Shown here: positions 2,908 to 28,931 of the stretch, piece after piece
Numbering within the stretch: the stretch's first letter is position 1
Layout of the letters: the number at the start of each line of letters is the position of its first letter
NCBI RefSeq assembly: GCF_000172995.2
Contig: NC_014729.1
Location: forward strand, 2,760,001-2,792,000
DNA from: Halogeometricum borinquense DSM 11551
Lineage (GTDB): Archaea; Halobacteriota; Halobacteria; Halobacteriales; Haloferacaceae
Length of the DNA: 32,000 nucleotides
Direction: 5' to 3'
Translations under genes and position numbers: made by a program
Notes under the pieces: model-generated
Seen by the model: only the letters and a program-made list of their open reading frames with translations
Databases searched by the model: none
What the model was told of the DNA's origin: nothing

Positions 2908-4452
2908 TCACCACGGCCTCACATCATGAGCAATGTTGTACATCAACTTAAGTTCCTCAGAGGTCCACTTGTACGTTTCAACGTGGGTGCTTTCTTCATG
3001 GCTGTCGTCCATCCCCTTTGGGACTATTGTACACGCCTCAGCATTCCCAAAGTCTTCCTCTGATAGGTCGTTAATGCAGTCGTTTAATCGATCAATGTTT
3101 TCGATTTTAGGTTTGCCAGTCTCACCCCGTGGAATCCCGTAATCTATGTCCTTGAGTGCACGTTTCGCTTGTTTAGTTGCCTTACTCGCATAATCATCGT
3201 CAGTTGAACCAACTTTTTCTTCGACCACCTTCACAACCTCTCCCGACTTTTTGTCCACGATTAGTTTATCGAATTCCGGATTTCTACTGGAATTCACTTG
3301 GACTCCTTTGACCATGGAGTCGTGGCCGGGAACCACGGCAAGTTCGCCTCTCTCGTCGGAGTCCTCAACGAAGCTTTCGACGAGATTTTTCTCAGGGTGC
3401 GACGAAAGGACCTCTCCTACATCTCCTTCACTGGCCCCAAGATCCTTCGGAGAGTCACCGATTCTCCAGAGGTCCTCGAAAAACTCATCATATTTGTCGT
3501 CGTCTACGGTCTGTTCTAACTCAGCGAGTAACTCGTCACTCAATCCCATCTCTTTGAGCGCCACCAGTGGTGACGCCACAGTATCCCGATCAGGGAGGTT
3601 GTTCCAGCGGGGCATCCGCTGAACGTGCACGTCTGAGTGCTCCATGCGATGCACGCCAATCTTTCCGCCTTGCATCACGCGCTGAGCGGTTTCTTCGGCT
3701 TCCCGTTCCAAGCGTGGGTCAGGATCAATCTCTAACTCGCCTGCTTGGGGAAGCATCGACACCGCGCCACCAGTCTGCTGGCGCACGTGCGCGAGTTCGT
3801 GGGCGAGAATATGCTGACCTTCAGCACTCGATGGATCGTATTCGCCGTGGTTGAACGCGATGTGATTCCCGACGGTAAACGCGCGGGCGTTGATATCCTC
3901 GCAAGCTTTCGCGGCCGATGGACCCGTATGGATGCGTACATCGCCCAGATTGTCGCCCATCCGATCTTCCATCGCACGCTGGATGCTCGTGTCGAGTTGC
4001 TGGCCCGGCGAGGAAATCACGTCTCGTACGGAGTCAGGCACGTTCGTGTCGCCAGCTTTCGACGCCTCGTGGTGCGCGCCGCGACTACGCTGGACAGATT
4101 TAGCGTTCCGGCGTTCGATGTCCTTTGGGACTTCTGCGGGGCGTTCTTTCTGACGCTGGCGGAACGCGCGCATGTCGCGTGGCTTGCCCATCGTATCGAC
4201 GGTCATGCCTTCGTCGGCCCATTCTCGGACTTGGTCTGCGCCGTGTTTCTTGGCCAGTCGCTGAATCTTCGTATCCAGCCCGTCCATGTATATTTCGACG
4301 CCGAATCGTGATTCACACTCTTGGGGCGTTAGCGGACCACCGCCACCACGACTCCGAGTCCGATTCAAGCCTCCCGTCAACTCTTGAATAGACGGAACGG
4401 ACGAGGATCGATCACCCTCACGGGCCCGTTCCTCTGTAGATCGAAATTCCAT
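2908..4452 (-). CDS. DUF4157 (zincin-like HExxH) domain protein with a divergent C-terminal domain; polymorphic-toxin-like effector
   Basis: The stretch LGDVRIHTGPSAAKACEDINARAFTVGNHIAFNHGEYDPSSAEGQHILAHELAHVRQQ matches the DUF4157 signature (VRIHt..A..a...A.AfT.G..I.F....y.P....G..LLAHELtHVvQQ). The C-terminal 230 aa are unrelated to this domain. A TATA-like TTATAT lies about 30 nt upstream. Confidence 0.9.
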   Translation of the reverse strand: MEFRSTEERAREGDRSSSVPSIQELTGGLNRTRSRGGGGPLTPQECESRFGVEIYMDGLDTKIQRLAKKHGADQVREWADEGMTVDTMGKPRDMRAFRQRQKERPAEVPKDIERRNAKSVQRSRGAHHEASKAGDTNVPDSVRDVISSPGQQLDTSIQRAMEDRMGDNLGDVRIHTGPSAAKACEDINARAFTVGNHIAFNHGEYDPSSAEGQHILAHELAHVRQQTGGAVSMLPQAGELEIDPDPRLEREAEETAQRVMQGGKIGVHRMEHSDVHVQRMPRWNNLPDRDTVASPLVALKEMGLSDELLAELEQTVDDDKYDEFFEDLWRIGDSPKDLGASEGDVGEVLSSHPEKNLVESFVEDSDERGELAVVPGHDSMVKGVQVNSSRNPEFDKLIVDKKSGEVVKVVEEKVGSTDDDYASKATKQAKRALKDIDYGIPRGETGKPKIENIDRLNDCINDLSEEDFGNAEACTIVPKGMDDSHEESTHVETYKWTSEELKLMYNIAHDVRPW

Positions 4453-4542: not shown

Positions 4543-4926
4543 TTAGAACAGCGCAGAGAGAACGGCGAGGTCGTCGGCCGACGGCCACGTGTAGAGCGCC
4601 CACGCGCCGAACACGTAGGTCATGAGCGGGACTTCGAGGCCGAACGCCCACGGGACCACGAACGGCGTGAGGAGTGCCCCGACCATCGTCGGCGCGAGGT
4701 TCGCAACGACGACGACGACCACGGGCGTCCCAGCGGGGTAGTTGAGTTCGAGACGCGGTGGAACGAGTCGATCGACGAGATCCAACGGGCGGGTTGCCTC
4801 GATCCACGGCCACGCCACCGCAGCATGCGTGAGTTCGTGCGCGAGTACTGCGGGGAACATAACGAGCGCCCCGAGGAGATCGACGAGGCCGACATTCTCT
4901 GAATCCGTATCAGAGGTCGTCGTCAT
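4543..4926 (-). CDS. Small polytopic membrane protein with an HExxH motif (putative membrane-embedded zinc metallopeptidase); last gene of the long operon
   Basis: AHELTHAAV sits at the edge of a hydrophobic helix and there are about 4 TM segments. I chose the start at ATG 4926 because it overlaps the upstream stop (ATGA) and GGAGGTG lies 10 nt upstream. The track ORF extends to 4953. Confidence 0.7.
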   Translation of the reverse strand: MTTTSDTDSENVGLVDLLGALVMFPAVLAHELTHAAVAWPWIEATRPLDLVDRLVPPRLELNYPAGTPVVVVVVANLAPTMVGALLTPFVVPWAFGLEVPLMTYVFGAWALYTWPSADDLAVLSALF

Positions 4927-5282
4927 CGCGGACGAGCACCTCCGCCGTTCCATAAGCTAAACAGTGCAAGCGCCGCGCCGAACAGGATCGACATGAACGC
5001 TCCAATCTTGGCCGCAGGCGGGAGGAACGGCATGAGGAACCCGCCGATCAGGATCGAAATCACTGCGGGGAGATCAGCGCGACCCTCAGTGAGGATGTAG
5101 AGAATCGTGCCGATCCCGATCCCGAGCATGGCCGGCGCAACCGGCCCAAGGAGATCCATGAACGGCTTGACGAACCCCGCCCACGCGTCGCCCTCTTTCC
5201 ACGGATCGTCGTAGGGGCTGTCGTACTGTGCGACCGTACTCGAGAGAACCCACGCGACCTCCAAGAGAACCGAGGACGTCAC
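4923..5282 (-). CDS. Polytopic membrane protein (119 aa) ending NGGGARPR
   Basis: It has 3-4 hydrophobic helices. I chose the GTG start at 5282 because it overlaps the upstream stop (GTGA) and GGGGGTG lies 8 nt upstream. The longer track ORF (to 5375) would overlap the upstream gene by 97 nt. Confidence 0.7.
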   Translation of the reverse strand: MTSSVLLEVAWVLSSTVAQYDSPYDDPWKEGDAWAGFVKPFMDLLGPVAPAMLGIGIGTILYILTEGRADLPAVISILIGGFLMPFLPPAAKIGAFMSILFGAALALFSLWNGGGARPR

Positions 5283-5659
5283 CGCGGACGCACCCCCGAA
5301 CGCCCGGTGAACATGTAGATCACAAATAGACCCATTGACCACGTGAGTGGCGACGCGATCATAACCGCACCCCACGACGGAAGGCCCGCATTGACGAGCA
5401 TATCCGCTAAGGCGTATATCAATACGAACGACGAAACGACCTCGTCAGTACCGGAGATCGTCGCGCCGATAAACGAGGTATCGCTCGAGCCACGACTCGC
5501 TGAGTAGTCCTTGAGATCGCCTTTGCTCTGCGCGACGTCGTCTTGAACGCCCGTGTCCGGTTGCATCCCGAGCCAGTCAGCAGTTCCCGAGGCAGTCATG
5601 GCCCCACCGACGCCCGCTACGCAAACGATGAACAGGAGGATCGTCGCCGGGTGTCTCAT
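5279..5659 (-). CDS. Small secreted/membrane-anchored protein (126 aa)
   Basis: The N-terminal signal-like segment is MRHPATILLFIVCVAGVGGAMTASG, and there are C-terminal TM helices plus a GRSGVRPR tail. ATG 5659 overlaps the upstream stop (ATGA), with GGAGGTG 7 nt upstream. The N-terminal extension of the track ORF is Arg-rich junk. Confidence 0.7.
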   Translation of the reverse strand: MRHPATILLFIVCVAGVGGAMTASGTADWLGMQPDTGVQDDVAQSKGDLKDYSASRGSSDTSFIGATISGTDEVVSSFVLIYALADMLVNAGLPSWGAVMIASPLTWSMGLFVIYMFTGRSGVRPR

Positions 5660-8600
5660 CGCCGACCACCTCCGCCAACGGCCATAGCGACTGCGACGAG
5701 TCCAGCAAACACGACCACCCCGCCGCTCGCGGTGTACCACCCGAGCCACCACATGACCGCGGCAACTCCGGTAACCGCAAGGGAGCCGATCGACGAGAGG
5801 CGACCACCGAACAGCATCCCCACGAACAGGAACAGGCAGGTGAGGATCACAGGCGTCCACTTCGGGCCTATCGGGTTCTCGATGACGTACCGCTTGCCGT
5901 CTGCGAGGTCATTCGAACTCTCGATTACTGTGTTCGACGAGTTGTAAGCGTACCACGTGACCTCCCAATCCGTTTCGGTGAGATTACCAGAGACGGTCTT
6001 GTTGAGGCTGAACGTTCCGTATCCTTCCGTGTACGTGCTGTTCATGATCTCGTTGCTTGAGTTGTTCGCCGCGTGGATGATGACGCGGAGCTTGCTCGTG
6101 TTCTGTGTTGGATCATGGTATTGGAAGTGCACGACGCCGTTCGGTTCCTCGTTGCCGTCGGTGAGGTCGATGTACGCGGCAGAGTGTCTGATCGCCTGCG
6201 TGTTGTCCTCGACTTTCCACGATACCTGGCCGACGTTGAGAGTAACAGTTCCCTTTCGCGTCGCCGTGTAGGCACCGAGCACGCGGCTTGAGTTATGTTC
6301 GCCGACGATACGAATCCGGTATCGACGATCCTTCTCAAGGGTTGCCTCGAAGCGTCCCTCGGCTCCGAAGAAGTCTCCGGAGACCGTGACCCACTCAAGG
6401 CCGCTCGACGTGTTCACCGCGCGCTCGATGTAGAGTTTTGCTCGTTCGTTGGATCCGGAGAACTCACCAGTGAGGTCGTTGAGGACGAACTCGGTGTAGT
6501 AGGCCGTCTTGCTGTCGTTAAGGAGATAGACCGAATCTTGCTCATAGAGTGACGTGATGATCACTGTGCGACGGTTGTGACCGTCCGCCTCGAGGACGAG
6601 GACGTAGGTCCGATCGACTGGCAGATCCGTGAGATTGAGCTTGCCGTTCTCTGTCGATCGCTCAAAGACGAGTTCCCCGGAGAAGAACCGTCCAGTGACG
6701 GTGACATTCGTCCCGTTGATCAACTCCTTGGGTTGGTTGACCGGGCGGATGTAGAGCGTCGATGGGACGAGATAGGTCTTATTCGCCGAGGTCGCGTCAG
6801 GGTTGCTCGAATTTCCCGAACCGTACTCGTCGTAGACGCGCACGTACCAGGAGTGATTGCCTCCGCCGACGTCGGTGATTGTCGTTGACGCCGTCCCGTT
6901 CGCCGAGAGCGTGTCAGTCCCAACGACCTCGCTATCGACGACGAACTCGGCTGTGACGGTGTCGCCGTCGAGCTGGAAGTCCCGGTCGGAGACGTTGACC
7001 GAGAGGGTAACGTCCTTGCTCGTCAACTTCGCCCCGTCCTCCGGGCTCATGCTTGAGGAGTTGACCGTCGGCTCGTAGTGGTCGATCTCCCAGGTGAACG
7101 AGTCCGACTCGGAGGTGAGGCCGTACTCGTCGGTCATCTCGACGTGCCACGTGTGGTTGCCGTCCTCGAGCGGGCCGACGTCGAACGTCACCGTCCCGTT
7201 CTTCGTGACGTTCTTGCTGCCGGCGACGGCGCCGTCGAGCACGAGATCGACCTTGACCTCGTCGCCGCTCGGCTCCGCAAAGTCCCGGTCGGAGACGTCG
7301 ATCGAGATCGTCTCGTTCGCGTATCTCGAGGTCGAACCGTCCGGGCTCGCCGAGCTGTTGTCGACGTCCGCCGCGTAGTGGTTGACCGTAAAGTTCCACG
7401 TCGACGACGTCGTCGCCTCCCCATACTCGTCGGTCGTCTCGACGTGCCACGTGTGGTTGCCGTCCTCGAGCTCGGTTACGGTCGTCGAGACGGTCTGGTT
7501 CGACGTGATCGTTTGTGTGTCGACGATCTCACCGTCGAGATAAACGTCGACGGTGACCGAGTCGCCTTGTGGTGTCGAAAAGTCCGAGTCGGAGATCGGG
7601 ACCGAGAGCGTTACATCCTCGTTGTTGGTGTCGCTCCCGCCGCTTGGAGCCGCCTCAGCTCCGTCTATCGACGGCGCTCGAGGTTGGAACCAAACGCCCT
7701 CGTCATGGATCTCGGCGACCGTCCCCGCCGGTTCGTCGTCGAAGACGACCTTCGTCCGCCACATCTCGTAGCTGGTGTTCCCGAGGTCAAGCGTGTAGTT
7801 CCCCGTCGACGAGTAGGTCGAGCTCTCGACGTCCGTCCAAGACGACGTCGAGGAGTCGTAGGCCTGGATTGTGACCGTCGCGCTCGCGTTCTGGAGCGTG
7901 AGGTCCGCCCACGCCTTCTTTGCGTTCCCAACGTCGTGAGGCTGCGAGATGTACGTCCCGCTGGACTTCTCACCGTTGAGATCGATCGCGTCGAAGTATT
8001 GGGCGTTGTGTTTCCACGCCTCCATCATGATACCGCCGGATTTGACCGTCTCATTGGAATCCGTCGCGGAGAGGGACGCGACGACGTTCCCGGCTTCGTC
8101 GTAGACCGTATAGTTCAGCTCGCCGTTCTCACCCCACTCAATTTTTCCACGGACCCACTCGCCCGAGGGAGTCCCAATATCCTTGTCGCGTAGGGTCGTG
8201 GACGTCCCATTGACGACCTTGATGATTCGGATGTCTTGAACGGTGTAGCCGTGCCTGACCCGATAATAGTTATTCGAGTCCTTCCCGAAATTGAACGCCC
8301 ACCCACCGCCAGAACCATCGTGGTAGGTGCGGAACGAGATCGTGTCGCCCGCGGACGGGTACTTCGGTAGCCCACTCGTCGAAACGAGATCCTCATCGAC
8401 GCTTGGGTCCATCTCGACCGCGTAGTCTCCGCTCCAGACCATCGAGGACTGAACGGTGTCGCCTGTCGTTTGCGTGTATTCGGACAGATCACCGTCCTCG
8501 AAGCCGTCTACGGTCTGGTTTAGCTGTCCTTCCAGCGCCACGGACGCCGACGTGCCGGACCCTTCGACGGAGACGTTCGTGAGCTCGGTCGCGTCGTTGA

Positions 8601-8751
8601 AGTCGCTCGCCGTGGTGTGGGAGCTCCCGACCGCAAGATCGCCGCTACTTGCCGCCGCAACCGGCGCGGTGCTCACGACGAGGTAGGTCGCGAACAGCGC
8701 GAACGCGACGATCGCCGGTCGGCGAGCGTCCTCGAGGCGGTCGCGGATCAC
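5656..8751 (-). CDS. Large secreted protein rich in N-glycosylation sequons, with a C-terminal TM anchor; spike/adhesin-like envelope glycoprotein candidate
   Basis: Signal peptide RRPAIVAFALFATYLVVSTAPVAAASS. More than 30 N-x-S/T sequons. LamG/ConA-like N-terminal region, then three 100-aa beta-sandwich-like repeats. C-terminal TM helices end in VGGGGRR. The probable start is GTG 8751 (GTGA overlap with the upstream stop, GGGGGTG 7 nt upstream). The track start is 8805. Confidence 0.9.
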   Translation of the reverse strand: MIRDRLEDARRPAIVAFALFATYLVVSTAPVAAASSGDLAVGSSHTTASDFNDATELTNVSVEGSGTSASVALEGQLNQTVDGFEDGDLSEYTQTTGDTVQSSMVWSGDYAVEMDPSVDEDLVSTSGLPKYPSAGDTISFRTYHDGSGGGWAFNFGKDSNNYYRVRHGYTVQDIRIIKVVNGTSTTLRDKDIGTPSGEWVRGKIEWGENGELNYTVYDEAGNVVASLSATDSNETVKSGGIMMEAWKHNAQYFDAIDLNGEKSSGTYISQPHDVGNAKKAWADLTLQNASATVTIQAYDSSTSSWTDVESSTYSSTGNYTLDLGNTSYEMWRTKVVFDDEPAGTVAEIHDEGVWFQPRAPSIDGAEAAPSGGSDTNNEDVTLSVPISDSDFSTPQGDSVTVDVYLDGEIVDTQTITSNQTVSTTVTELEDGNHTWHVETTDEYGEATTSSTWNFTVNHYAADVDNSSASPDGSTSRYANETISIDVSDRDFAEPSGDEVKVDLVLDGAVAGSKNVTKNGTVTFDVGPLEDGNHTWHVEMTDEYGLTSESDSFTWEIDHYEPTVNSSSMSPEDGAKLTSKDVTLSVNVSDRDFQLDGDTVTAEFVVDSEVVGTDTLSANGTASTTITDVGGGNHSWYVRVYDEYGSGNSSNPDATSANKTYLVPSTLYIRPVNQPKELINGTNVTVTGRFFSGELVFERSTENGKLNLTDLPVDRTYVLVLEADGHNRRTVIITSLYEQDSVYLLNDSKTAYYTEFVLNDLTGEFSGSNERAKLYIERAVNTSSGLEWVTVSGDFFGAEGRFEATLEKDRRYRIRIVGEHNSSRVLGAYTATRKGTVTLNVGQVSWKVEDNTQAIRHSAAYIDLTDGNEEPNGVVHFQYHDPTQNTSKLRVIIHAANNSSNEIMNSTYTEGYGTFSLNKTVSGNLTETDWEVTWYAYNSSNTVIESSNDLADGKRYVIENPIGPKWTPVILTCLFLFVGMLFGGRLSSIGSLAVTGVAAVMWWLGWYTASGGVVVFAGLVAVAMAVGGGGRR
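6766..7659 (-). repeat. Three tandem 300-nt (100-aa) domain repeats inside the glycoprotein gene
   Basis: Repeat landmarks LEDGNHTWHVETTDEYG, LEDGNHTWHVEMTDEYG and VGGGNHSWYVRVYDEYG are spaced exactly 100 aa apart. Each is preceded by (D/S)VSDRDF-like strands. Confidence 0.85.
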
Positions 8752-9041
8752 CGCGGACCACCCCCACGGAACGATCCCTTGCCCGCGACGACGGCGTAAA
8801 GCCACGCCACGATCCCGATCATAAGGAACGTGGGAGCGATCACGAGCCCGACATCGAGCGTGAAACTCAGGTTGTCGTCAAGGCCCTCCTCCTCGATCGC
8901 GCCGTTGTCAGCTTTCTTGACGGCGTCAGCGGTCCCATCAATCGTCGGGATCCCCACGACGACGAAGATACCACCGAGGAACAGGAGGAGCACCACGATC
9001 ACGAACGCGGAGAGATAGGACCCTCGGCTCTGTCGTCGCAT
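8748..9041 (-). CDS. Small 2-TM membrane protein (97 aa)
   Basis: Two hydrophobic helices flank an acidic loop, and the tail is FRGGGPR. ATG 9041 has GGAGGT 8 nt upstream, inside the end of the preceding gene. Confidence 0.75.
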   Translation of the reverse strand: MRRQSRGSYLSAFVIVVLLLFLGGIFVVVGIPTIDGTADAVKKADNGAIEEEGLDDNLSFTLDVGLVIAPTFLMIGIVAWLYAVVAGKGSFRGGGPR

Positions 9042-9044
9042 GAG

Positions 9045-9341
9045 TTAGAACCTCCGTCCAGTTTCGTTGATGGAGCGCCGAAACGAGATCAGTAAGGCTG
9101 CGAGTGCCGCTCCCCACAACGGCCAATACTCCCACAGGAGCCGATACCGTCGAACCGTCTCCTCGCCCCGGCTTGAATCGGCCATGCTGTTGCTCATGTT
9201 GAACAGCATGTGCTGCGGGCCGTCGAGGAACGACCACAACATAACGGCGAGGAACAGCACGCCGAACAGGAACAGGCCGAACCACGCGAAACTCGCATGG
9301 ACGGTGAGGTTCTCGTCGAGTTCACCGAACCAGTGAGTCAC
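9045..9341 (-). CDS. Small 2-TM membrane protein (98 aa)
   Basis: The GTG start overlaps the upstream stop (GTGA), with GGAGGTG 7 nt upstream. There are two hydrophobic helices. Confidence 0.75.
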   Translation of the reverse strand: MTHWFGELDENLTVHASFAWFGLFLFGVLFLAVMLWSFLDGPQHMLFNMSNSMADSSRGEETVRRYRLLWEYWPLWGAALAALLISFRRSINETGRRF

Positions 9342-12300
9342 CGATGGCCACCTCCGTATCCGGCGTTATCGTCGATGCCCGCAAGCGTCTCCTCGAAGGC
9401 AGCGTTGGCAGAATCGAGAGCGTCGTCAACCGCGGTGGAACGCTCAGCGCTCGCAAGCGTAGCGTCGAGCGCCTCTGTGGCGCTCGCGACGGGATTCACC
9501 CAGTCCTCTCCGTAGCCGACGAGCGGAGCGAACTGATCGATGCGCTCTTGCTCGTCGTCGTTGCTGTCGTCACGTCGGCGGCGATCGTCATCATCCCATG
9601 GACCACGAAGAGGGAGTCCCCCGTCTCCACCTCCACTCCCACCGCTGCTCGACGGAGGATACGACGGGCCACCACCACTGCCATCGCCACCCCCATCGCC
9701 GCCCGGCGGAGGATATGACGGACCCGGACCACCGCCACCGTCGTTACTATCACCGCCTGGCGGGGGATATGACGGGTCAGAGCCACCGCTGCCATCACCA
9801 CCCGACGGTGGATATGACGAGTCAGGACTACCGACACCACCGCTTGGTGGCAAATACCCCGAGCCGGGACCACCACTACCCGATCCACCGTAGGGTGGGA
9901 CGTCCGGCTCGCCACCGGTCGGAGCGCCACCGTAACCGCTCCCGACATCCGGATCAGGATAGCCGAGCGGGACGACGGGGGTAGGATCTGACGCGTCCGC
10001 GCCGTCTTTGTAGGCGTACTGTGAGGCGCGTGCACCGTCAGAATCTGAATCTGTGTCAGGAGACCTATCGGGCCCGTTGTAGGTATTCGTATCCGAGTCG
10101 GCAACTCGTGCTGTCGTGTCAGTATCGACATCGACAGCCCGTCCGGAGGGAAGACCCGCCTGACCTCGGGAGTCTGCGAGGAACGCCTGAGCCTCCTGGG
10201 GGAGATCAACATCGGGGATTTCCGGCGACGGTGGGTTCGGGTTTCTCAAGGTCGTGGTGCCGAACTCGTCTTCGAGATCGCCCCACGATCCGTAGTTTTC
10301 GTCCGGGAGCGACAGATCACCCCACGCGTCTTGCCACGAATCGGCCGCCGCTTTCGTCCCACGAGCCCGCCACCGAGTGATAGGATTGAGCGACTTGCTT
10401 TGCTGTTCGGCCATCCGTTCTGCGATCGTGCCGACGTCAACGACGTCTTTCGACCGCCATGTCTTCGGGGCGATCTCGCCCTCGCCGAACAGCCTCATTC
10501 CCCCTTCGATCTTCGCGTTTACCTGACTCTCAACGGGTTGGATTTTGACACCGTCGGCGGATCGGGTCGGGCCGTGGAGGTCGCCTGACCAATCTTTTTT
10601 CCCACGAGCACGGGAGCGGTCGTTTATATCGACCATGTGATCCCACCCATCCTCGGTCTTGACCTCGATTCCCCCTCGGCGCTGCATGGGACGGTCTTCG
10701 TACTTGCTGAGTATGTCGAAAAGTTCCTTCTGAGCCTTATCGGTATCACCAGTGTAGATGTCTATGTCATCGGGCGTACGGGCCTTCCCCGTCTGCATGA
10801 GTTGTGAGACACTTCCTCCGAGCTCCGAGTCGGTTGTTTTCAGCCACTCAGTGACTTCGGGAGCTGCCTCGTCGGGAATCTGTTGCGCGTTTCGAATCCC
10901 CTTCTCGGCCGTGGTGTCGGTGCCACCACTGACACGATCAACAACGGCATCTGTTCGAGAGCGGTCGCCGAGTCGCTCTGCGATTTCACGTCCTGCCTCG
11001 TATCGTTGCAGATCCGTCCCTTCTAGTTGGTTTCGGAGATTTGTGTCCCATATCGATGTCTCGATGGGCGAGGTTGGGGCAACCCCGCTTGAGTCCGGTC
11101 TCTTTGGAGGCCCTTGGAGATCGACATCCGGCGTTCCCACAGTCGGGCGGTGGTTGGTGACCCCGATTCGAGGAGTCGGGTTCGATCCTGGTAGCTTGGT
11201 TGTAAGGCCGCGGTAGGTCGTGACGTCGCCTCCATCTGGGACCTTCGCCGTCTCTACGCGTACCGGCATCTTTGACCCGATACCGACTTTTGTCGTGAGT
11301 CGCCCCACACCGAACCCAGTCAAGAGACCCAAACCAGCACCACCGACGAACTCAACGGGGCTAGATCGCGCTTCATTGACCATTGCTTCTCCCGCTTCCC
11401 GTCCGAACGCGGTCACGGTTTCACCAACAGCACCCGGCCCGTACTCTTCGACCGCATCGGGAGCGTTCTGTGCGACCTCGATACCCGTCTCGGCAGTTGT
11501 GATGTGCTGCGGAACGTTCAGAAAGTCAACTCCTGCCTTAGCAGCACCTTCGAGCAGTTGTTCCGGGACTCCTTCCTGCGAGTCAGGTACTCCGCCTTCA
11601 TCGGTTTCGATCGTCTTTTTGTAGTCATTAATGTCTTTAGCAACGCTCCTTACCTGCTGTTCTTGATCCTCAGAAAGGAGTCCTCCACTCTTCGTGAGGT
11701 CGTCACTGATATTCGTATTGAATTCAGCGTTGTTGACTGCCTCTCCCGTGTTTTCGGCCGAATTCTCTACACTTTCTTCTACTGCATTTCCAACGTTCGA
11801 GGCAGTCTCACCGACCGTATCCACACCACCACTGACAGAGTTTCCTACGTCACTCACGACGTCCGTGGCGGTATCAGTGGCCGAATCAATGCCACTGTCC
11901 ACGGAGTTGCCAACGTCATTCGTGACGTCAGAGGCAGTATCGGTTACTGTATCAACCCCCTCACCGACAGAATCTCCAACGCCGTTCACGACATCGGAGG
12001 CAGTATCGGTTACCGAGTCGATCCCGTCGTCAACAGAGTTTCCCACATCGTTCCCGATGTCTGAGGCGGTATCGGTGACTGAGTCGATACCATCGTCAAC
12101 AGAGCTGCCTACATCGTTTCCAATGTCTGAGGCGGTGTCGGTAACTGTGTCAACACCGGACTCCACCGCACTCCCAACATCGTCGAAGAATCCGCCACTG
12201 TCGCTGGACGATGAACTCGAGGAGGTTGGCGAGTCCAAGGACGAACCAGAGTGGTCTCGCCCCGCCTCTTGCGATGACCCTGACGAGCCGCCGATCCCGA

Positions 12301-12523
12301 CCGAGTCGGTCACGGAGTCAGCAGCGTCCGAGACGGTGTCGGTGATGCCGTCCCAGAACCCGCCACCGCCGCCCGAGTCGTTCGACGAGGACGAAGAGTG
12401 GGACGATCCCGAGGACCCCGACGAGCCGCTGCTCGAGGAACTACTCGACTGAGAGCCCGACGAACTACCGGAATCACCCGATTCGGATCCGGAATAGCCG
12501 GGGATGTTGTCTAAGAATCCCAT
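9338..12523 (-). CDS. Giant (1061 aa) low-complexity/repeat protein with poly-Ser/Gly tracts, 22-aa tandem repeats, a Gly-rich hydrophobic segment, a globular middle region and a Pro/Gly-rich SYPPxGG region
   Basis: A single uninterrupted ORF. The ATG directly abuts the upstream stop (TAGATG). Composition is extremely acidic, S/G/D/T-rich at the N-terminus. See the repeat features and findings. Confidence 0.9.
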   Translation of the reverse strand: MGFLDNIPGYSGSESGDSGSSSGSQSSSSSSSGSSGSSGSSHSSSSSNDSGGGGGFWDGITDTVSDAADSVTDSVGIGGSSGSSQEAGRDHSGSSLDSPTSSSSSSSDSGGFFDDVGSAVESGVDTVTDTASDIGNDVGSSVDDGIDSVTDTASDIGNDVGNSVDDGIDSVTDTASDVVNGVGDSVGEGVDTVTDTASDVTNDVGNSVDSGIDSATDTATDVVSDVGNSVSGGVDTVGETASNVGNAVEESVENSAENTGEAVNNAEFNTNISDDLTKSGGLLSEDQEQQVRSVAKDINDYKKTIETDEGGVPDSQEGVPEQLLEGAAKAGVDFLNVPQHITTAETGIEVAQNAPDAVEEYGPGAVGETVTAFGREAGEAMVNEARSSPVEFVGGAGLGLLTGFGVGRLTTKVGIGSKMPVRVETAKVPDGGDVTTYRGLTTKLPGSNPTPRIGVTNHRPTVGTPDVDLQGPPKRPDSSGVAPTSPIETSIWDTNLRNQLEGTDLQRYEAGREIAERLGDRSRTDAVVDRVSGGTDTTAEKGIRNAQQIPDEAAPEVTEWLKTTDSELGGSVSQLMQTGKARTPDDIDIYTGDTDKAQKELFDILSKYEDRPMQRRGGIEVKTEDGWDHMVDINDRSRARGKKDWSGDLHGPTRSADGVKIQPVESQVNAKIEGGMRLFGEGEIAPKTWRSKDVVDVGTIAERMAEQQSKSLNPITRWRARGTKAAADSWQDAWGDLSLPDENYGSWGDLEDEFGTTTLRNPNPPSPEIPDVDLPQEAQAFLADSRGQAGLPSGRAVDVDTDTTARVADSDTNTYNGPDRSPDTDSDSDGARASQYAYKDGADASDPTPVVPLGYPDPDVGSGYGGAPTGGEPDVPPYGGSGSGGPGSGYLPPSGGVGSPDSSYPPSGGDGSGGSDPSYPPPGGDSNDGGGGPGPSYPPPGGDGGGDGSGGGPSYPPSSSGGSGGGDGGLPLRGPWDDDDRRRRDDSNDDEQERIDQFAPLVGYGEDWVNPVASATEALDATLASAERSTAVDDALDSANAAFEETLAGIDDNAGYGGGHR
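9614..9961 (-). repeat. Pro/Gly-rich degenerate repeats (SYPPxGG-type motif, about 5 copies) near the C-terminus of the giant protein
   Basis: Protein stretch PPYGGSGSGGPGSGYLPPSGGVGSPDSSYPPSGGDGSGGSDPSYPPPGGDSNDGGGGPGPSYPPPGGDGGGDGSGGGPSYPPSSSGG. Confidence 0.8.
11750..12187 (-). repeat. About 6.5 tandem copies of a 66-nt (22-aa = 2 x 11-aa) repeat in the giant protein gene
   Basis: The units are DSVTDTASDIGNDVGSSVDDGI / DSVTDTASDIGNDVGNSVDDGI / DSVTDTASDVVNGVGDSVGEGV / DTVTDTASDVTNDVGNSVDSGI / DSATDTATDVVSDVGNSVSGGV / DTVGETASNVGNAVEESVENSA. The DNA copies are visibly similar but not identical. Confidence 0.9.
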
Positions 12524-13528: not shown

Positions 13529-13600
13529 CTACGGCTCACCTCCGTTGGATTTCAGCTGTTCGTCCATCGTGAAGTACACGATATTTTCGTTGTTTGACAT
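13529..13600 (-). CDS. Possible 23-codon micro-ORF (MSNNENIVYFTMDEQLKSNGGEP) bridging two operon genes
   Basis: It is not in the ORF track because it is under 60 aa. Its ATG lies 3 nt after the upstream TAA, and its TAG directly abuts the next ATG (TAGATG). Its last codons carry the GGAGGTG that serves the next gene. Confidence 0.3.
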   Translation of the reverse strand: MSNNENIVYFTMDEQLKSNGGEP

Positions 13601-13603
13601 GGG

Positions 13604-14164: not shown

Positions 14165-14166
14165 GT

Positions 14167-14520: not shown

Positions 14521-14997
14521 TCACCTCCGTCCACGTCGCCCGCCGCCACCGAACCCGCCGACGAGCCCCAGAATGAGGGCTGCGACGAGGACGATCACGG
14601 CGACCGCGCCGAGGACGAACGCGCTCCCGATCGTGCCGATCGAGTTGCGCGCCATGTCCGGCTTGTGGTCGAAAGCGTAGTCGATCTCCGCGGTCGCACC
14701 GTCTGTTGTACTCGTCGTACTATACCATGCTACCGAGTGATTTCCGGGATACCACTCATAGTCGGTTCCCTCAGTGAGGTTCGTACCCGAACTGTTCGTG
14801 ATCGTCTCGTTTTCATAGTATTTCTCGCCGTACGTCTTGTCAACCGACGTTGCGTTGCCCACGTCTATCGTGATCGACTCGTTCGCGACGCTCGATGTCG
14901 CCATAGCCGGCATCGTGCCGAAAATCGAGGACACAACGTAGATCCCGACGATCAGCATGACCGCCACGGTGACCATCTGGTTAAACGAGTCTTCCAC
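14521..14997 (-). CDS. 2-TM protein with a sequon-rich ectodomain; paralog of the C-terminal half of 15047..15625
   Basis: It shares FNQMVTVAVMLIVGIYV... and ...AVIVLVAALILGLVGGFGGGGRRGRR with its neighbour. The loop has NES, NAT, NET, NSS, NLT and NHS sequons. The track start GTG 15006 lies inside the SD GGAGGTGA, so GTG 14997 (5 nt after it) is preferred. Confidence 0.8.
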   Translation of the reverse strand: MEDSFNQMVTVAVMLIVGIYVVSSIFGTMPAMATSSVANESITIDVGNATSVDKTYGEKYYENETITNSSGTNLTEGTDYEWYPGNHSVAWYSTTSTTDGATAEIDYAFDHKPDMARNSIGTIGSAFVLGAVAVIVLVAALILGLVGGFGGGGRRGRR

Positions 14998-15046
14998 GTG
15001 TCTCACCTCCGTTCATAAGAGTGGTTTTAGGGTGTGAGATGGGTGT

Positions 15047-15625
15047 TTAGCGGCGACCCCGTCCGCGACCACCGAAGCCGCCGACGAGCCCGAGGATCAC
15101 CGAGGCGACGAGGACGATAATCGCGACAGACCCAAGAGTGAACGCGTTACCCGTCGTTGACTTGACGGTGTTTGTTGAGTTCGCGAGTTCGGGGTTCGAC
15201 GGCGTCGGCATCGTCGAACTGATCTGAGCGAACACGTAGATCCCGACGATCAGCGTGACCGCGGCCGACACCATGCGAGTGAATGTCGCTTCAATCGCCG
15301 CGTAGACCTGGGAATCCTCACCGAGGCGCTCGCCGATACCGAGTTCCTCGTCAACCTCATCCCACTGCCGTCCGGCGTAGAGATCGGCCATTTCCTGCTG
15401 AATCTCCGCGGCCGTGCGGACGTCCTCGATCCCACCCTTGAGGCGCTCGCGAACGTCGTTCACGCCGTTGATGATTGCCGCCTGTCCGATAGCGACGAGA
15501 CCCGCACGCTGTTCGGAGCTGAGTCCTTCTGTCTCGATCTCAGCGTCGAGAACGTGGTCGTCGAACTGTTCCGCGTCGTTGCTGCGCCGGTCGTATCCGG
15601 CGTGGGGGGTTGCATGAACCTCCAT
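15047..15625 (-). CDS. First gene of the long operon: an acidic N-terminal soluble domain plus two TM helices, ending GLVGGFGGRGRGRR
   Basis: The ATG start sits at the edge of a 114-nt divergent intergenic region. TM helices are TFTRMVSAAVTLIVGIYVFAQI and GSVAIIVLVASVILGLVGG. Confidence 0.85.
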   Translation of the reverse strand: MEVHATPHAGYDRRSNDAEQFDDHVLDAEIETEGLSSEQRAGLVAIGQAAIINGVNDVRERLKGGIEDVRTAAEIQQEMADLYAGRQWDEVDEELGIGERLGEDSQVYAAIEATFTRMVSAAVTLIVGIYVFAQISSTMPTPSNPELANSTNTVKSTTGNAFTLGSVAIIVLVASVILGLVGGFGGRGRGRR

Positions 15626-16647: not shown

Positions 16648-17547
16648 ATGGCGAAAGCTCAAATCACACATCCCACGGCCGACCGTATCCCCGAACCCGT
16701 CCGGAACTCTCCAATCCTCCGCAAGGTGATCTACCGGCGGGTTCACGAATGGAACCAGAACTTCATGGGCGTCGTCGTCGGCGAGACGGGCAAGGGCAAG
16801 TCCTACGCCGCTCTCCGTCTCGCCGAGGCTCTCTACCCCGATTTCGACGTCGACAACGTCGCATTCACTCTCGAGGAGTTTTTCGGACTCGTCGAGGAGG
16901 ACCAACCCGAGGGATCGGTGATCGTCCTCGACGAGGCCGGCGTCGGCGCCTCACATCGCGACTGGTACGACGACGCCCACCAGCACCTCAACTACGTGTT
17001 GCAAACGTGGCGCCACCAGAACCGGATCGCGATCCTCACGCTTCCCGAGCTCGACAAGCTCGATCCCGTCGCTCGGTCCCGGCTCCACGGCTATTTCGAG
17101 ATGATCCGGATCAACCACGACGAGGAGTGGTCGCGGGCTCAGTTCAAGAGGATCAAGACGAACCCGAGGACCGGCGAGAACCACTACCCGTACCCTCGAC
17201 TCCGGTGGGACGGGACCAAACGGAAATATAAAGGACTCACCTTCGGCCTCCCGTCCGTGGATCTGATCGGTGCTTATGAAGAACGTAAAGAGAAGTTCAC
17301 AGACTCCCTAAACAAGACGGCAAAGGAGGCCGTTGCCCCTGACGATGATGACGAGGAGGAGTATAGCCCGCGTGAGGCCGTTGACGAGATCGAGTCACGC
17401 GACGCCGTTGACGCCTACCTTGAGGACTCGCCCGGTGGACAGTACATCAACCGGAACCTCCTCAAGGTGGACTACGGGCTTACAGAGAACGAGAGTAAGA
17501 CCGTCAAGAGTCTGCTAAAGCGGAGGTTCGACCTTGACGTCATGTGA
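16648..17547 (+). CDS. P-loop NTPase (299 aa), a small virus/plasmid-type morphogenesis or packaging-like ATPase candidate
   Basis: Walker A is GVVVGETGKGKSYAA and Walker B is SVIVLDEAGV. GAGGT lies 9 nt upstream of the ATG. The C-terminal tail is acidic. Confidence 0.9.
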   Translation: MAKAQITHPTADRIPEPVRNSPILRKVIYRRVHEWNQNFMGVVVGETGKGKSYAALRLAEALYPDFDVDNVAFTLEEFFGLVEEDQPEGSVIVLDEAGVGASHRDWYDDAHQHLNYVLQTWRHQNRIAILTLPELDKLDPVARSRLHGYFEMIRINHDEEWSRAQFKRIKTNPRTGENHYPYPRLRWDGTKRKYKGLTFGLPSVDLIGAYEERKEKFTDSLNKTAKEAVAPDDDDEEEYSPREAVDEIESRDAVDAYLEDSPGGQYINRNLLKVDYGLTENESKTVKSLLKRRFDLDVM

Positions 17548-27902: not shown

Positions 27903-28931
27903 ATGAAGACACCCTCCGACCTGACGCCTCGAGAAGCAGTTCGTCGATATCTCGACCGACGGAGTACTGAACTCTCCGAGTCGTCGGTTCGTACCTACCG
28001 GTACCGTCTGAAACTATGGGTTGAGTGGTGCGAGGATGAGAACATCGAGCGGGTTGAAGACCTGACTGGCTGGACCTTCGAGCAGTTCGAGGCGTTCCGT
28101 TCAGGACAGGGTATTGCCTCCCCCACGCTCCACGGCGAGATGGAGACGCTGAAAGGTCACATAGAGTACCTTGAACGCATCGAGGCCGTTGATGACGGAC
28201 TCGCTGACAAGGTCCATGTGCCGGACGTTCCGGATTCGGAAATGTCGCGCGATACGATGCTCCGGCCGGAGGACGCAGAGGACCTGATTCGTTACTACCG
28301 TACGCACGATAACGTCTACGGAACTCGGTTCCACGCTGCTCTCGAACTCGCGTTTCACACTGGCGCTCGACTCGGTGCGCTTCGCGGAATCGATCTCCGC
28401 GATTACCACTCGGACGAGCAATTCGTTGAGTTCGTTCATCGGCCGGAGACTAATACGCCGTTGAAGAATCAGCGAAGTGGCGAACGCTCTGTTTCGCTAC
28501 TGTCCGAGGTCTGTGACGCCATCGACGAGTTCATCGCTCACAATCGGCCGTCGGGTCACGACGAGTTCGGACGGTCGCCGCTGTTTCTCACGTATCACGA
28601 GAACCGAGTCTCTAAGAACGCGTTTAGAGCGTGGATATACCGTGCGACGCAGCCCTGTGTGGCGGGTACGTGCCCACACAACTACGACCGTGAGACGTGC
28701 GACTTCCGTCGTCACTCGACCGCAAGCCAGTGTCCGTCCTCAAGGGCACCACATCACGTTCGCACTGGTTCGATTACGTGGCATCGAGACCGGGGATTTC
28801 CTCCGGAGGTGACCGCTGAACGCGTGAATGCGTCTCAGGAGGTTATCGAGAAGCACTACGACAAGGCTTCCCAGCGAGAGCGGATGGAGTTGCGCCGTCG
28901 CCCTCACCTGGGGAAGCTCGAAATCGAGTGA
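27903..28931 (+). CDS. Tyrosine integrase (342 aa) with an N-terminal SAM-like core-binding domain and a Cys-rich insertion
   Basis: Catalytic R in HTGARLGALRGIDL, HxxR in PHHVRTGSITW, and HRD...EKHY (Tyr). The four-Cys insertion is CVAGTCPHNYDRETCDFRRHSTASQC. GGTGAGGTG lies upstream of the ATG. Confidence 0.92.
   Translation: MKTPSDLTPREAVRRYLDRRSTELSESSVRTYRYRLKLWVEWCEDENIERVEDLTGWTFEQFEAFRSGQGIASPTLHGEMETLKGHIEYLERIEAVDDGLADKVHVPDVPDSEMSRDTMLRPEDAEDLIRYYRTHDNVYGTRFHAALELAFHTGARLGALRGIDLRDYHSDEQFVEFVHRPETNTPLKNQRSGERSVSLLSEVCDAIDEFIAHNRPSGHDEFGRSPLFLTYHENRVSKNAFRAWIYRATQPCVAGTCPHNYDRETCDFRRHSTASQCPSSRAPHHVRTGSITWHRDRGFPPEVTAERVNASQEVIEKHYDKASQRERMELRRRPHLGKLEIE

What the first reader, a model, noticed from the sequence alone, without database searches (positions are those of the whole stretch)
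5656..8751. Sequon-saturated, C-terminally anchored 1031-aa spike/adhesin candidate with three exact-period 100-aa repeats
The protein has a signal peptide with an AxA-type site. A LamG/ConA-like region follows (VDGFEDGDLSEY...WSGDYA...YYRVRHGY...IIKVVNG). Then come three beta-sandwich-like repeats, each carrying the motif (L)EDGNHTWHVExTDEYG. A prealbumin-like C-terminal half follows, and two TM helices end in GGGGRR.

There are more than 30 N-x-S/T sequons, several of them inside the conserved repeat motif (NHT/NHS). Haloarchaeal viral spikes (for example pleolipovirus VP4) and S-layer proteins are N-glycosylated, so this is the most plausible receptor-binding or fusion component. The tandem repeats at DNA level (6766-7659) also create potential for recombinational length variation.
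Basis: partly seen in the sequence, partly recalled or inferred. Interest (0 to 1): 0.55.

Follow-up and report, generated by a model that had tools for sequence, protein, structure and literature searches.

The report
Lemon-shaped provirus surface (tail-spike-like) glycoprotein
This gene encodes the large, probably sugar-coated surface protein of a lemon-shaped archaeal virus integrated in the Halogeometricum borinquense chromosome. It is most likely the virus's host-recognition spike, and is a new example of a protein family already seen in the related virus LSV-48N, though no one has tested what that family does.

Summary
Window 5656-8751 (-) encodes a 1031-aa protein with a signal peptide and three Ig-like repeats at an exact 100-aa period. 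It has 35 N-x-S/T sequons against 12.4±3.1 expected (z≈7). The C-terminal hydrophobic anchor ends in GGGGRR and has three helices, not two.

The window is the Halogeometricum borinquense DSM 11551 chromosome. The gene lies in a provirus collinear with the lemon-shaped Haloferax virus LSV-48N (proposed Almyrocitroviridae). It is the orthologue of LSV-48N CDS0012 (35% identity, 95% coverage). I matched CDS0012 to P_03682, the most abundant LSV-48N protein in published virus-preparation proteomics.

The C-terminal 377-aa module defines a family of more than 900 50%-identity clusters and always sits at the protein's C-terminus. The N-terminal parts vary and often carry LamG/ConA-like lectin domains. 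Between two H. borinquense strains the flanking DNA is 99.5-100% identical. The mature N-terminal head (aa 35-380) has been replaced by a cassette only 28-67% identical.

Best reading: an exported, N-glycosylated, virion-anchored receptor-binding spike, analogous to fusellovirus tailspike VP4. Homology to VP4 is inconclusive, and VP4's GH76-like core is absent. The pleolipovirus-spike and fusexin comparisons are not supported. It is a new member of a known kind, of moderate interest.

The parts
8650..8751 (-). GTG start codon (overlaps the upstream TGA stop as GTGA) and the signal peptide, aa 1-34, with an AxA site
   Evidence: The segment is conserved in the family consensus.
8467..8640 (-). 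Small N-terminal beta domain, aa 38-95
   Evidence: The AF2 model has strands at 40-82, with pLDDT 82-92 for residues 41-70.
7966..8466 (-). Jelly-roll (LamG/ConA-like) head domain, aa 96-262. This is the putative receptor- or glycan-binding tip.
   Evidence: AF2 predicts an all-beta domain with pLDDT 55-81. It is about 33% identical to cellular LamG-like or SO2946-like_C proteins. Laminin_G_3 and Laminin_G_2 domains occur in other family members. It is only 26% identical to the version in an otherwise 97-100% identical orthologue.
7678..7965 (-). Beta-sandwich domain, aa 263-358
   Evidence: AF2 pLDDT is about 90.
7612..8650 (-). Exchanged head cassette, aa ~35-380. It covers the three domains above plus the linker into Ig1.
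   Evidence: Against the other H. borinquense strain (L006), nucleotide identity is 28-67% here. It is 99.5% upstream (window 8651-18751) and 100% from aa 381 onward.
7348..7647 (-). Ig-like repeat 1, aa 369-468, containing an NHT sequon and DEYG
7048..7347 (-). Ig-like repeat 2, aa 469-568 (Big_13)
6787..7047 (-). Ig-like repeat 3, aa 569-655, diverged (NHS sequon, Big_3_5-like)
5887..6786 (-). Conserved C-terminal core of three beta-sandwich domains, aa 656-955. The first gives a weak CarboxypepD_reg-like hit.
   Evidence: AF2 models and the Pfam hit. This is the family-defining module, found in 914 cluster representatives. It holds invariant R810 and nearly invariant D759, R812 and G826.
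5659..5886 (-). C-terminal anchor of three hydrophobic helices ending in GGGGRR, aa 956-1031. The stop codon is at 5656-5658.
   Evidence: AF2 helices at 965-984, 986-1002 and 1011-1025. Hydropathy shows three peaks. The three-segment pattern is present in all 24 aligned relatives.
8748..9341 (-). Two small upstream membrane-protein genes (97 and 98 aa), translationally coupled to the target. The same pair precedes the orthologue in LSV-48N, V_ICIS4, Halobacterium CBA1126 and Natrinema DC36.
9338..12523 (-). Giant 1061-aa Ser/Asp/Gly-rich protein with 66-nt tandem repeats. It is the positional equivalent of LSV-48N CDS0015 and is sequon-depleted.
   Evidence: LSV-48N P_03685 was detected in virus preparations.
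14521..15625 (-). Two paralogous small two-helix membrane proteins (161 and 192 aa), candidate capsid proteins. The 161-aa one is a weak homologue of LSV-48N CDS0019 and is sequon-enriched.
16648..17547 (+). Zot-like P-loop ATPase, 42% identical to LSV-48N CDS0023
27903..28931 (+). Tyrosine integrase, 61% identical to LSV-48N CDS0030. It probably marks the right end of the provirus.

Best explanation
The gene encodes the large surface glycoprotein of an LSV-48N-like lemon-shaped virus (proposed family Almyrocitroviridae) that is integrated as a provirus in the Halogeometricum borinquense DSM 11551 chromosome.

**Proposed mechanism. Step 4 rests partly on a relative's proteomics; the rest is inference.**
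1. The N-terminal signal peptide sends the roughly 930-residue all-beta ectodomain across the cell membrane.
2. Outside the cell, the host oligosaccharyltransferase AglB can decorate its many N-x-S/T sites.
3. The three C-terminal hydrophobic helices keep the protein in the membrane. The Arg after helix 1 and the terminal GGGGRR face the cytoplasm, which becomes the virion interior.
4. During virion assembly this helical anchor, whose Gly/Arg tail resembles those of the neighbouring small capsid-type proteins, slots into the hydrophobic capsid lattice. The most likely site is the tail end, as for the three-helix bundle of fusellovirus tailspike VP4.
5. The conserved three-sandwich core and the 1-3 Ig spacers project the N-terminal head outward.
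6. The jelly-roll (LamG/ConA-like) head binds a host surface structure, probably a glycan. Because it sets host range, it is exchanged as a cassette between otherwise identical viruses.
For: **Shown**
- Identity of the locus: 100% match to H. borinquense DSM 11551 protein C499_08722 on a 2.82-Mb contig.
- Orthology: LSV-48N CDS0012 matches at 35% identity, 95% coverage and E=8e-86.
- Collinear structural module: small membrane proteins, a giant protein, two ~95-aa proteins, the target, then three or four ~120-aa membrane proteins. A Zot-like ATPase (42% identity), an integrase (61%) and a regulator (67%) are also shared. The same order is found in:
  - Halorubrum virus V_ICIS4;
  - a Halobacterium CBA1126 36-kb contig;
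  - a Natrinema DC36 34-kb plasmid;
  - a Halolamina provirus.
- Virion association in a relative: Dataset EV2 of PMC12714723 lists P_03682 (672 aa, 71.7 kDa) as the most abundant LSV-48N protein, with iBAQ 4.6e8. I computed 71.71 kDa for the C-terminal 672 aa of CDS0012 starting at an internal ATG. Its neighbours P_03681 (122 aa) and P_03683 (88 aa) correspond to CDS0011 (122 aa) and, approximately, CDS0013 (92 aa).
- Exposure: sequons run at z=7.3 in the target and z=2.7-7.5 in all 24 relatives. The neighbouring giant protein is depleted, with 2 against 7.2 expected. Several sites are positionally conserved, for example N618 in 22 of 23 relatives.
- Modular architecture: the C-terminal 377-aa module occurs in 914 cluster representatives, always at the C-terminus, behind N-terminal parts of about 200-930 aa. 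Those parts carry Laminin_G_3 (best E=1.4e-44), Laminin_G_2, Ig, PKD and CBM-type domains.
- Host-range-like behaviour: the head cassette (aa 35-380) is 28-67% identical at the DNA level between two H. borinquense strains. The flanks are 99.5-100% identical.

**Analogy**
- SSV19 VP4 is a 1236-aa tailspike. It ends in a beta-sandwich plus a three-helix bundle inserted at the capsid-tail junction, and it is N-glycosylated at NXT sites (PMC9351363).
- The LSV-48N authors report HHpred similarity of the C-terminal end to an SSV19 tail protein: 92% probability, E=4.9.
Against: - There is no direct evidence for this protein itself: no expression, glycosylation or virion data for the H. borinquense element, and no evidence that the provirus is active.
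- Tail location is inferred. The LSV-48N proteomics used precipitated supernatant, not purified virions. Top abundance could also fit a protein that coats the whole particle or is shed on vesicles.
- Homology to fusellovirus VP4/B210 could not be established (see the membership test).
- The jelly-roll domain has only moderate model confidence and no Pfam hit in this protein.
- No receptor is known for any member of the family.
Confidence: 0.7

Rival explanations
1. It coats the whole surface of the lemon-shaped particle as a glycoprotein 'fur', or acts as a second major structural component, rather than being a tail-restricted spike. In that case it mainly shields or stabilises the virion in brine instead of determining host range.
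For: The LSV-48N orthologue has the highest iBAQ of all viral proteins, above the candidate capsid proteins. Dense glycosylation is typical of protective coats. The Gly/Arg-tailed terminal helix resembles those of the putative capsid proteins, so it could co-polymerise anywhere in the lattice.
Against: Small hydrophobic capsid proteins are notoriously under-detected by tryptic MS, as PMC13612827 notes for Tebi-SV1 VP35, so iBAQ rank is a poor guide to copy number. Cassette exchange of the distal head with perfectly conserved flanks is the signature of a recognition module, not a passive coat. The lectin-type N-terminal domains seen across the family also point to binding.
Confidence: 0.15
2. 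It is a provirus-encoded cell-surface protein that acts on the host cell, not in the virion. Possible roles are superinfection exclusion, cell-cell adhesion, or attachment of released particles to fibrils. It would reach supernatants only by shedding or on vesicles.
For: It has a signal peptide plus a membrane anchor. The LSV-48N proteomics used precipitated culture supernatant that also contained many host proteins. LSV-48N particles were seen attached to fibrillar structures.
Against: The gene sits in the middle of the conserved structural operon and is translationally coupled to its neighbours. Twelve other LSV-48N proteins from the same and the adjacent gene clusters co-occur in the supernatant. 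The family is conserved in every related element examined, including small 24-36-kb episomes.
Confidence: 0.08
3. It is a membrane-fusion or pleolipovirus-type spike, or a fusexin-like fusogen. This is the fusion option in the first reader's reading.
For: It is a large glycosylated type-I-like viral membrane protein of a haloarchaeal virus. Pleolipovirus spikes are N-glycosylated (this last point rests on my own knowledge, not on a tool result).
Against: There is no sequence match to any pleolipovirus among 50,697 virus records. Foldseek against PDB and BFVD gives only generic beta-sandwich arrays, with no pleolipovirus spike or fusexin among the top 50. The genome context is LSV-like, not pleolipoviral. 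The anchor has three helices, not one. The spindle virion whose structure I consulted, SSV19, has a protein shell with only a few lipids lodged in hydrophobic clefts (PMC9351363, abstract). Extending this to the LSV-like viruses is an inference.
Confidence: 0.03
4. It is an ordinary host cell-surface or S-layer-type adhesin that merely lies next to mobile-element genes.
For: The head domain is about 33% identical to domains of large cellular surface proteins on haloarchaeal megaplasmids. NCBI annotates the protein simply as an Ig-like domain repeat protein.
Against: Full-length relatives occur only in the conserved virus-like module. There is no PGF-CTERM sorting signal in the sequence. Only the head domain matches cellular proteins, which fits domain acquisition rather than common function.
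Confidence: 0.02

Closest known systems
LSV-48N CDS0012 (WWZ16970.1; P_03682 in the proteomics of PMC12714723), the large structural protein of the lemon-shaped Haloferax virus LSV-48N
   Same: It is a full-length orthologue: 35% identity, 95% coverage, E=8e-86. It holds the same position in a collinear operon. The architecture matches: signal peptide, jelly-roll head, Ig repeats, conserved three-sandwich core and three-helix anchor. Sequons are enriched in both (z=5.9 in LSV-48N).
   Different: LSV-48N has two Ig repeats rather than three and 904 rather than 1031 aa. The head domain is only 23% identical. The C-terminal tail differs...SFNSY against GGGGRR. The host genus is also different. 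The function of the LSV-48N protein has not been tested.
[quoted passage not shown]
   Same: It belongs to the same proposed virus family (Almyrocitroviridae) and has the same described domain logic.
   Different: The main text passages I read do not say whether VP29 was among the six proteins detected in particles.
Fusellovirus tailspike VP4 and adaptor B210 of SSV19 (PDB 7XDI; PMC9351363)
   Same: Both are very large, beta-rich, N-glycosylated (NXT) tail proteins of a spindle-shaped virus. Both end in a beta-sandwich followed by about 70 residues forming three hydrophobic helices and a Gly-rich charged tail. VP4's flexible beta-rich protrusions are proposed to mediate receptor recognition. 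hhalign aligns the helical regions colinearly.
   Different: VP4's defining GH76-like alpha/alpha6 core is absent. Statistical support for homology is weak: probability 8-60%, and no hit with HMMER or in the Foldseek top 50. The terminal tail is acidic in fuselloviruses (GGGEEE) and basic here.
Receptor-binding tail fibre and tailspike proteins of tailed phages
   Same: Both have a conserved virion-proximal module with variable distal modules. The distal modules are exchanged by recombination between near-identical genomes. Both use Ig/Fn3 spacers and lectin-type tips.
   Different: Polarity is reversed: here the anchor is C-terminal and the variable tip N-terminal. Anchoring is through membrane-type helices. 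There is no detectable homology beyond the generic Ig folds.
Pleolipovirus spike proteins
   Same: Both are glycosylated surface proteins of haloarchaeal viruses with a signal peptide and a C-terminal membrane anchor.
   Different: There is no sequence or fold match. The genome context differs, and the anchor has three helices.

Membership tests
LSV-48N-type (proposed Almyrocitroviridae) large Ig-like structural protein | Full-length sequence homology to LSV-48N CDS0012 | tested here: met
   tblastn gives 35% identity, 95% coverage and E=8e-86. The window-versus-LSV comparison gives E=2e-101.
LSV-48N-type (proposed Almyrocitroviridae) large Ig-like structural protein | Position in the conserved structural operon, with shared ATPase, integrase and regulator | tested here: met
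   Gene order is collinear. The Zot-like ATPase is 42% identical, the integrase 61% and the regulator 67%. The same order is seen in four further elements.
LSV-48N-type (proposed Almyrocitroviridae) large Ig-like structural protein | Conserved C-terminal module of three beta-sandwiches plus three hydrophobic helices | tested here: met
   AF2 models and the alignment of 24 relatives. The module is found in 914 cluster representatives, always at the C-terminus.
LSV-48N-type (proposed Almyrocitroviridae) large Ig-like structural protein | Physical presence in virus particles | not testable with these tools
   This is shown only for the LSV-48N orthologue, and there in precipitated supernatant.
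Fusellovirus tailspike VP4 (SSV19, PDB 7XDI) | GH76-like alpha/alpha6 pseudo-sixfold helical core | tested here: not met
   The AF2 model is all-beta from residue 40 to 950. The only long helices are the signal peptide and the C-terminal anchor. The VP4 core is described in PMC9351363.
Fusellovirus tailspike VP4 (SSV19, PDB 7XDI) | C-terminal beta-sandwich plus three-helix bundle, homologous to that of VP4/B210 | tested here: inconclusive
   The architecture is the same. hhalign of the family profile against SSV6, SSV19 and ASV1 VP4 C-termini and B210 gives probability 8-60% and P=9e-5 to 4e-3, colinear on the helices. HMMER against PDB finds no 7XDI chain at E≤10. Foldseek shows none in the top 50. 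The LSV-48N authors report HHpred 92% probability with E=4.9.
Fusellovirus tailspike VP4 (SSV19, PDB 7XDI) | N-glycosylation of exposed NXT/NXS sites | not testable with these tools
   Only the potential is shown: 35 sequons, z=7.3, 20 NxT and 15 NxS.
Fusellovirus tailspike VP4 (SSV19, PDB 7XDI) | Oligomeric ring at the capsid-tail junction | not testable with these tools
   No multimer modelling or microscopy was available.
Pleolipovirus spike protein | Sequence or fold similarity to pleolipovirus spikes | tested here: not met
   There is no pleolipovirus among the tblastn hits in 50,697 virus records, and none in the Foldseek PDB top 50.
Pleolipovirus spike protein | Pleolipovirus core-gene context | tested here: not met
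   The context is LSV-48N-like throughout.
Fusexin / HAP2 class II fusogen | Three-domain class II fusion fold | tested here: not met
   The model is a string of about nine independent beta-sandwich domains. Foldseek top hits are cytokine receptors, complement MG domains and phage Ig/Fn3 proteins.
Haloarchaeal S-layer or housekeeping surface glycoprotein | Chromosomal housekeeping context and a PGF-CTERM/archaeosortase signal | tested here: not met
   The gene lies in a provirus module. The C-terminus is three helices plus GGGGRR, with no PGF motif.

The most novel reading that the evidence does not exclude
The conserved C-terminal module (terminal beta-sandwich, three hydrophobic helices and a Gly-rich charged tail) could be a true remote homologue of the VP4/B210 capsid-tail junction module of crenarchaeal fuselloviruses. 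That would make tail attachment an ancestral feature shared by haloarchaeal (Almyrocitroviridae) and Sulfolobus spindle-shaped viruses, which otherwise show no sequence similarity. On that conserved base, the N-terminal lectin-type head would work as a freely exchangeable host-range cassette, partly drawn from host surface proteins.
Probability: 0.3. Interest if true: 0.6.

Novelty: new member of a known kind. Interest (0 to 1): 0.4.

Why it matters
[quoted passage not shown] No receptor-binding protein is named in the passages of the LSV-48N and Tebi-SV1 papers that I read.

This analysis does three things:
- **Links the gene to published proteomics.** It ties an unannotated 'Ig-like repeat protein' in a type-strain genome to the most abundant LSV-48N virion-preparation protein.
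- **Defines a large family.** More than 900 clusters share a fixed virion-proximal module with variable lectin-type heads.
- **Supplies a natural experiment.** Two H. borinquense proviruses are identical except for the head cassette, which points to that head as the host-range determinant.

Together these give a concrete target for adsorption and host-range experiments, and for structural work on how spindle virions attach their tails.

It does not reveal a new kind of biological system.

Tried and rejected
- **PHROGs and NCBIfam:** no family hit for the target.
- **HMMER profile searches of PDB** with 24- and 56-sequence alignments returned only an Ig/PKD hit (KIAA0319L, E=3e-4) and insignificant hits. 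No SSV19 chain appeared.
- **Foldseek:** the full-length model against PDB and BFVD, and the C-terminal 377-aa model against PDB, gave only generic multi-beta-sandwich proteins. These searches could not discriminate between hypotheses.
- **The search for related loci:**
  - With the family alignment it failed, because no conserved 7-10-column stretch exists.
  - With the single protein it found only one genome locus, in Halolamina salifodinae.
- **Provirus attachment sites:** a search for direct repeats within the window found nothing convincing. There is no tRNA gene in the window, and the left end of the element probably lies outside it.
- **Length variation in the neighbouring giant gene:** I considered whether its 66-nt tandem repeats vary between strains. 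The 10.1-kb alignment to the other strain has no indels, so the apparent 942-aa versus 1061-aa difference is only a start-codon call.
- **Literature:** a search for a described H. borinquense provirus found nothing relevant.
- **Tat versus Sec export:** the ARRPAIV stretch only loosely resembles a twin-arginine motif. I left this undecided.

Full report
**1. The observation**

The long minus-strand ORF at 5656-8805 is real. It gives the same 1031-aa product that NCBI annotates as C499_08722 of Halogeometricum borinquense DSM 11551, at 100% identity on a 2.82-Mb contig. The window is therefore chromosomal DNA of that haloarchaeon.

The N-terminus has a basic n-region, a hydrophobic core and a VAAA|S site, and this pattern is conserved across relatives.

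DEYG occurs at residues 441, 541 and 641, an exact 100-aa period. NHT, NHT and NHS sequons lie inside the repeat motif. Pfam calls the repeats Big_13 at E=4e-10. They are old duplications, with 44%, 26% and 22% pairwise identity.

There are 35 N-x-S/T sequons against 12.4±3.1 in shuffles (z=7.3), and 57% of all Asn residues sit in sequons.

- The anchor has three hydrophobic helices, not two (AF2 and hydropathy).
- Tandem Repeats Finder sees no DNA repeat in the region. Unit-to-unit DNA identity is only 63-73% over short stretches.
- The LamG call has only indirect support for this protein.
- The prealbumin-like call rests on one sub-threshold CarboxypepD_reg hit.

**2. Context: a lemon-shaped-virus provirus**

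tblastn against 50,697 virus records hits only two:
- Haloferax virus LSV-48N, at 35% identity, 95% coverage and E=8e-86;
- Halorubrum virus V_ICIS4, over the C-terminal third only.

The minus-strand block from about 15625 down to 2479 is collinear with LSV-48N CDS0020 to CDS0006. Other shared genes are:

| Gene | Identity to LSV-48N |
|---|---|
| Zot-like ATPase | 42% |
| Tyrosine integrase | 61% |
| DUF7845/HTH regulator | 67% |
| Several small membrane proteins | weaker matches |

The same operon order, '~95 aa, ~95 aa, large protein, several ~110-130 aa proteins', recurs in five further elements:
- V_ICIS4;
- a 36-kb Halobacterium contig;
- a 34-kb Natrinema 'plasmid';
- a Halolamina salifodinae provirus, with neighbours 70-89% identical;
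- two other H. borinquense strains.

[quoted passage not shown] With Tebi-SV1 it has been placed in a proposed family, Almyrocitroviridae (PMC13612827).

**3. What is known about the orthologue**

The LSV-48N paper identified 13 viral proteins in culture-supernatant preparations. [quoted passage not shown] HHpred showed similarity of its C-terminal end to an SSV19 tail protein (92% probability but E=4.9) and of residues 365-549 to a beta-sandwich.

Dataset EV2 lists that protein as P_03682, with 672 aa and 71.7 kDa. It sits between P_03681 (122 aa) and P_03683 (88 aa). The C-terminal 672 residues of GenBank CDS0012 begin at an internal ATG and compute to 71.71 kDa. CDS0011 has 122 aa. P_03682 is therefore a shorter gene call of CDS0012, the target's orthologue.

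[quoted passage not shown] This is probably the same family, but I could not test it.

**4. Architecture**

The AlphaFold2 model was built with 22 homologues and has mean pLDDT 76.6. pTM is low, as expected for beads on a string. It shows:

| Residues | Element |
|---|---|
| 3-26 | Signal helix |
| 40-82 | Small beta domain |
| ~96-262 | Jelly-roll-like all-beta domain |
| 263-358 | Beta-sandwich, pLDDT ~90 |
| 369-655 | Three Ig domains |
| 656-950 | Three further beta-sandwich domains |
| 965-984, 986-1002, 1011-1025 | Three helices |

A separate model of the last 377 residues agrees.

The charge distribution fits an outside-ectodomain, inside-C-terminus topology: an Arg follows helix 1, the loop between helices 2 and 3 is uncharged, and the protein ends in GGGGRR. 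This topology is an inference.

Five neighbouring small membrane proteins also end in a hydrophobic helix followed by a Gly-rich, Arg-containing tail. This suggests a shared way of sitting in the capsid lattice.

**5. Family and modularity**

A sensitive search with the C-terminal 377 residues finds 914 50%-identity cluster representatives: 831 at E≤1e-10 and 342 at E≤1e-30. The module is always at the extreme C-terminus, behind N-terminal regions of roughly 200-930 residues.

A Pfam census of 56 members shows that the variable parts carry:
- Laminin_G_3 in 8 members (best E=1.4e-44);
- Laminin_G_2 in 5;
- Big_13 in 8 and Big_3_5 in 7;
- PKD, CarboxypepD_reg, a sialidase-type CBM and similar domains.

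Ig repeat number ranges from 0 to 3, and differs even among close relatives: two copies in three Halogeometricum-like proteins, three here.

Sequon enrichment holds in every one of 24 relatives, with z=2.7-7.5. Some sites are positionally conserved. Within the operon, only the target, the 161-aa capsid candidate and one ~98-aa protein are enriched. The giant 1061-aa neighbour is depleted, with 2 against 7.2 expected. This serves as an internal control separating exposed from internal components.

**6. The head is exchanged as a cassette**

Against another H. borinquense strain (L006), the figures are:

| Region | Identity |
|---|---|
| Window 8651-18751 (DNA) | 99.5%, no indels |
| From aa 381 onward, four 60-nt windows checked (aa 381-460, DNA) | 100% |
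| Window 7612-8650, aa ~35-380 (DNA) | 28-67% |
| Jelly-roll domain (protein) | 26% |
| Ig1 to the C-terminus (protein) | 97-100% |

The upstream breakpoint lies at the signal-peptide cleavage region. The downstream one lies at the start of Ig1. A third strain (L007) has a different head and one fewer Ig repeat. More distant proteins show the opposite mosaic, with the N-terminal part more similar than the core (P0006).

The head domain's nearest non-viral relatives are domains of large cellular surface proteins on haloarchaeal megaplasmids, at about 33% identity.

This pattern is what receptor-binding proteins of phages typically show. It is the strongest evidence here for a host-recognition role.

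**7. Comparison with known systems**

*Fusellovirus VP4.* SSV19 VP4 is a 1236-aa, NXT-glycosylated tailspike. Its C-terminal beta-sandwich and Z-shaped three-helix bundle, together with those of adaptor B210, form the ring that joins tail to capsid. The target shares that terminal architecture and, by inference, its logic. It lacks VP4's GH76-like helical core.

My tests of homology were inconclusive.
- hhalign of the family profile against betafusellovirus VP4 C-termini and B210 gives probability 8-60% and P=9e-5 to 4e-3. The alignments are colinear but consist mostly of hydrophobic helix.
- HMMER against PDB finds no hit to the SSV19 structure 7XDI.
- Foldseek shows no 7XDI chain among its top 50.

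I therefore claim 'works like', not 'is a member of'.

**8. Verdict**

The finding is a real and correctly delimited gene. The virus type and the structural comparators were wrong.

The protein is a new member of a family already seen, though not functionally characterised, in LSV-48N and probably in Tebi-SV1. What this analysis adds:
- the link to the published proteomics;
- the size and modular logic of the family;
- the three-helix anchor;
- the natural head-cassette swap.

Confidence that it is the orthologue of the LSV-48N major virion-associated protein is about 0.95. Confidence that it is specifically a virion-anchored receptor-binding (tail-spike-like) glycoprotein is about 0.7. Interest is moderate, at 0.4.

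Noticed in passing
window 4923-5375, 5279-5662, 5656-8751, 8748-9041, 14521-15006, 15047-15625 (all minus strand): Six proteins of the structural module, the target among them, end in a hydrophobic helix followed by a Gly-rich, Arg-containing tail. The tails read GGGGRR, GGFGGGGRRGRR, GGFGGRGRGRR, GGGARPR, GRSGVRPR and FRGGGPR. Betafusellovirus VP4 and B210 end in a comparable helix plus GGG, but with an acidic tail (GGGEEE). This may be a shared lattice-insertion or interior-facing motif.
   Followed up: partly
window 14521-15006 and 15047-15625 (-): Two paralogous small two-helix membrane proteins. Their DNA is 73-85% identical over the helix-coding parts. The 161-aa one is a weak homologue of LSV-48N CDS0019, which is annotated 'major tail protein with Ig-like domain', and carries 6 sequons (z=4.2). 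They are likely the major and minor capsid protein pair, as with VP1/VP3 in fuselloviruses.
   Followed up: partly
window 2908-4452 (-): A 514-aa protein with an eCIS_core (DUF4157) domain at E=1.5e-31 and an HExxH-like AHELAHV motif lies at the end of the structural operon. In another H. borinquense strain the equivalent region is split into three ORFs that each hit eCIS_core. LSV-48N has no detectable counterpart. It could be a virion-associated metallopeptidase or toxin-like cargo.
   Followed up: no
window 9338-12523 (-), repeats at 11835-12183: A giant 1061-aa Ser/Asp/Gly/Thr-rich protein with 66-nt (22-aa) tandem repeats (4.8 copies, 74% match) and weak PHROG 'tape measure' hits that probably reflect composition. 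It is sequon-depleted and corresponds positionally to LSV-48N CDS0015, which is abundant in virus preparations. This gene, not the target, holds the only true DNA tandem repeat in the region.
   Followed up: partly
window 17713-18891 and 19140-20348 (+): A MoxR/CbbQ-type AAA_5 ATPase is followed by a VWA-domain protein. The ATPase is 89% identical in the Halolamina provirus. Neither has a counterpart in LSV-48N. Their role in the element is unknown.
   Followed up: no
window ~21000-27000; gene 24683-25921 (-): A low-GC island (49-55% GC against about 60% elsewhere) lies between the ATPase module and the integrase. It includes a matrixin-like Zn-metallopeptidase (Peptidase_M10, E=5.5e-10) with 8 sequons. 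It looks like a cargo or accessory region of the provirus.
   Followed up: no
L005 (Natrinema sp. DC36 plasmid unnamed6, 33.9 kb); also hits H4 and H10: Several 23-35-kb haloarchaeal 'plasmids' carry the same structural module. Examples are Natrinema DC36 unnamed6, a Halobaculum CBA1158 plasmid and Natronomonas pharaonis PL23. They are probably episomal genomes of LSV-like viruses. In Natrinema the LamG head is a separate ORF upstream of the core. The core itself is mis-annotated as a 'sulfite exporter TauE/SafE family protein', presumably because of its three helices.
   Followed up: partly
window 73-1689 (+) versus L006: The DUF7845+HTH regulator is 67% identical to LSV-48N CDS0026 and matches phrog_3288 at E=4e-110. 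It is present at the left edge of the window and in strain L007. It is absent within 10 kb in strain L006, where P450 and DEAD-helicase genes follow instead. The left boundary or content of the provirus therefore differs between H. borinquense strains, and in this window it probably lies beyond position 1.
   Followed up: no
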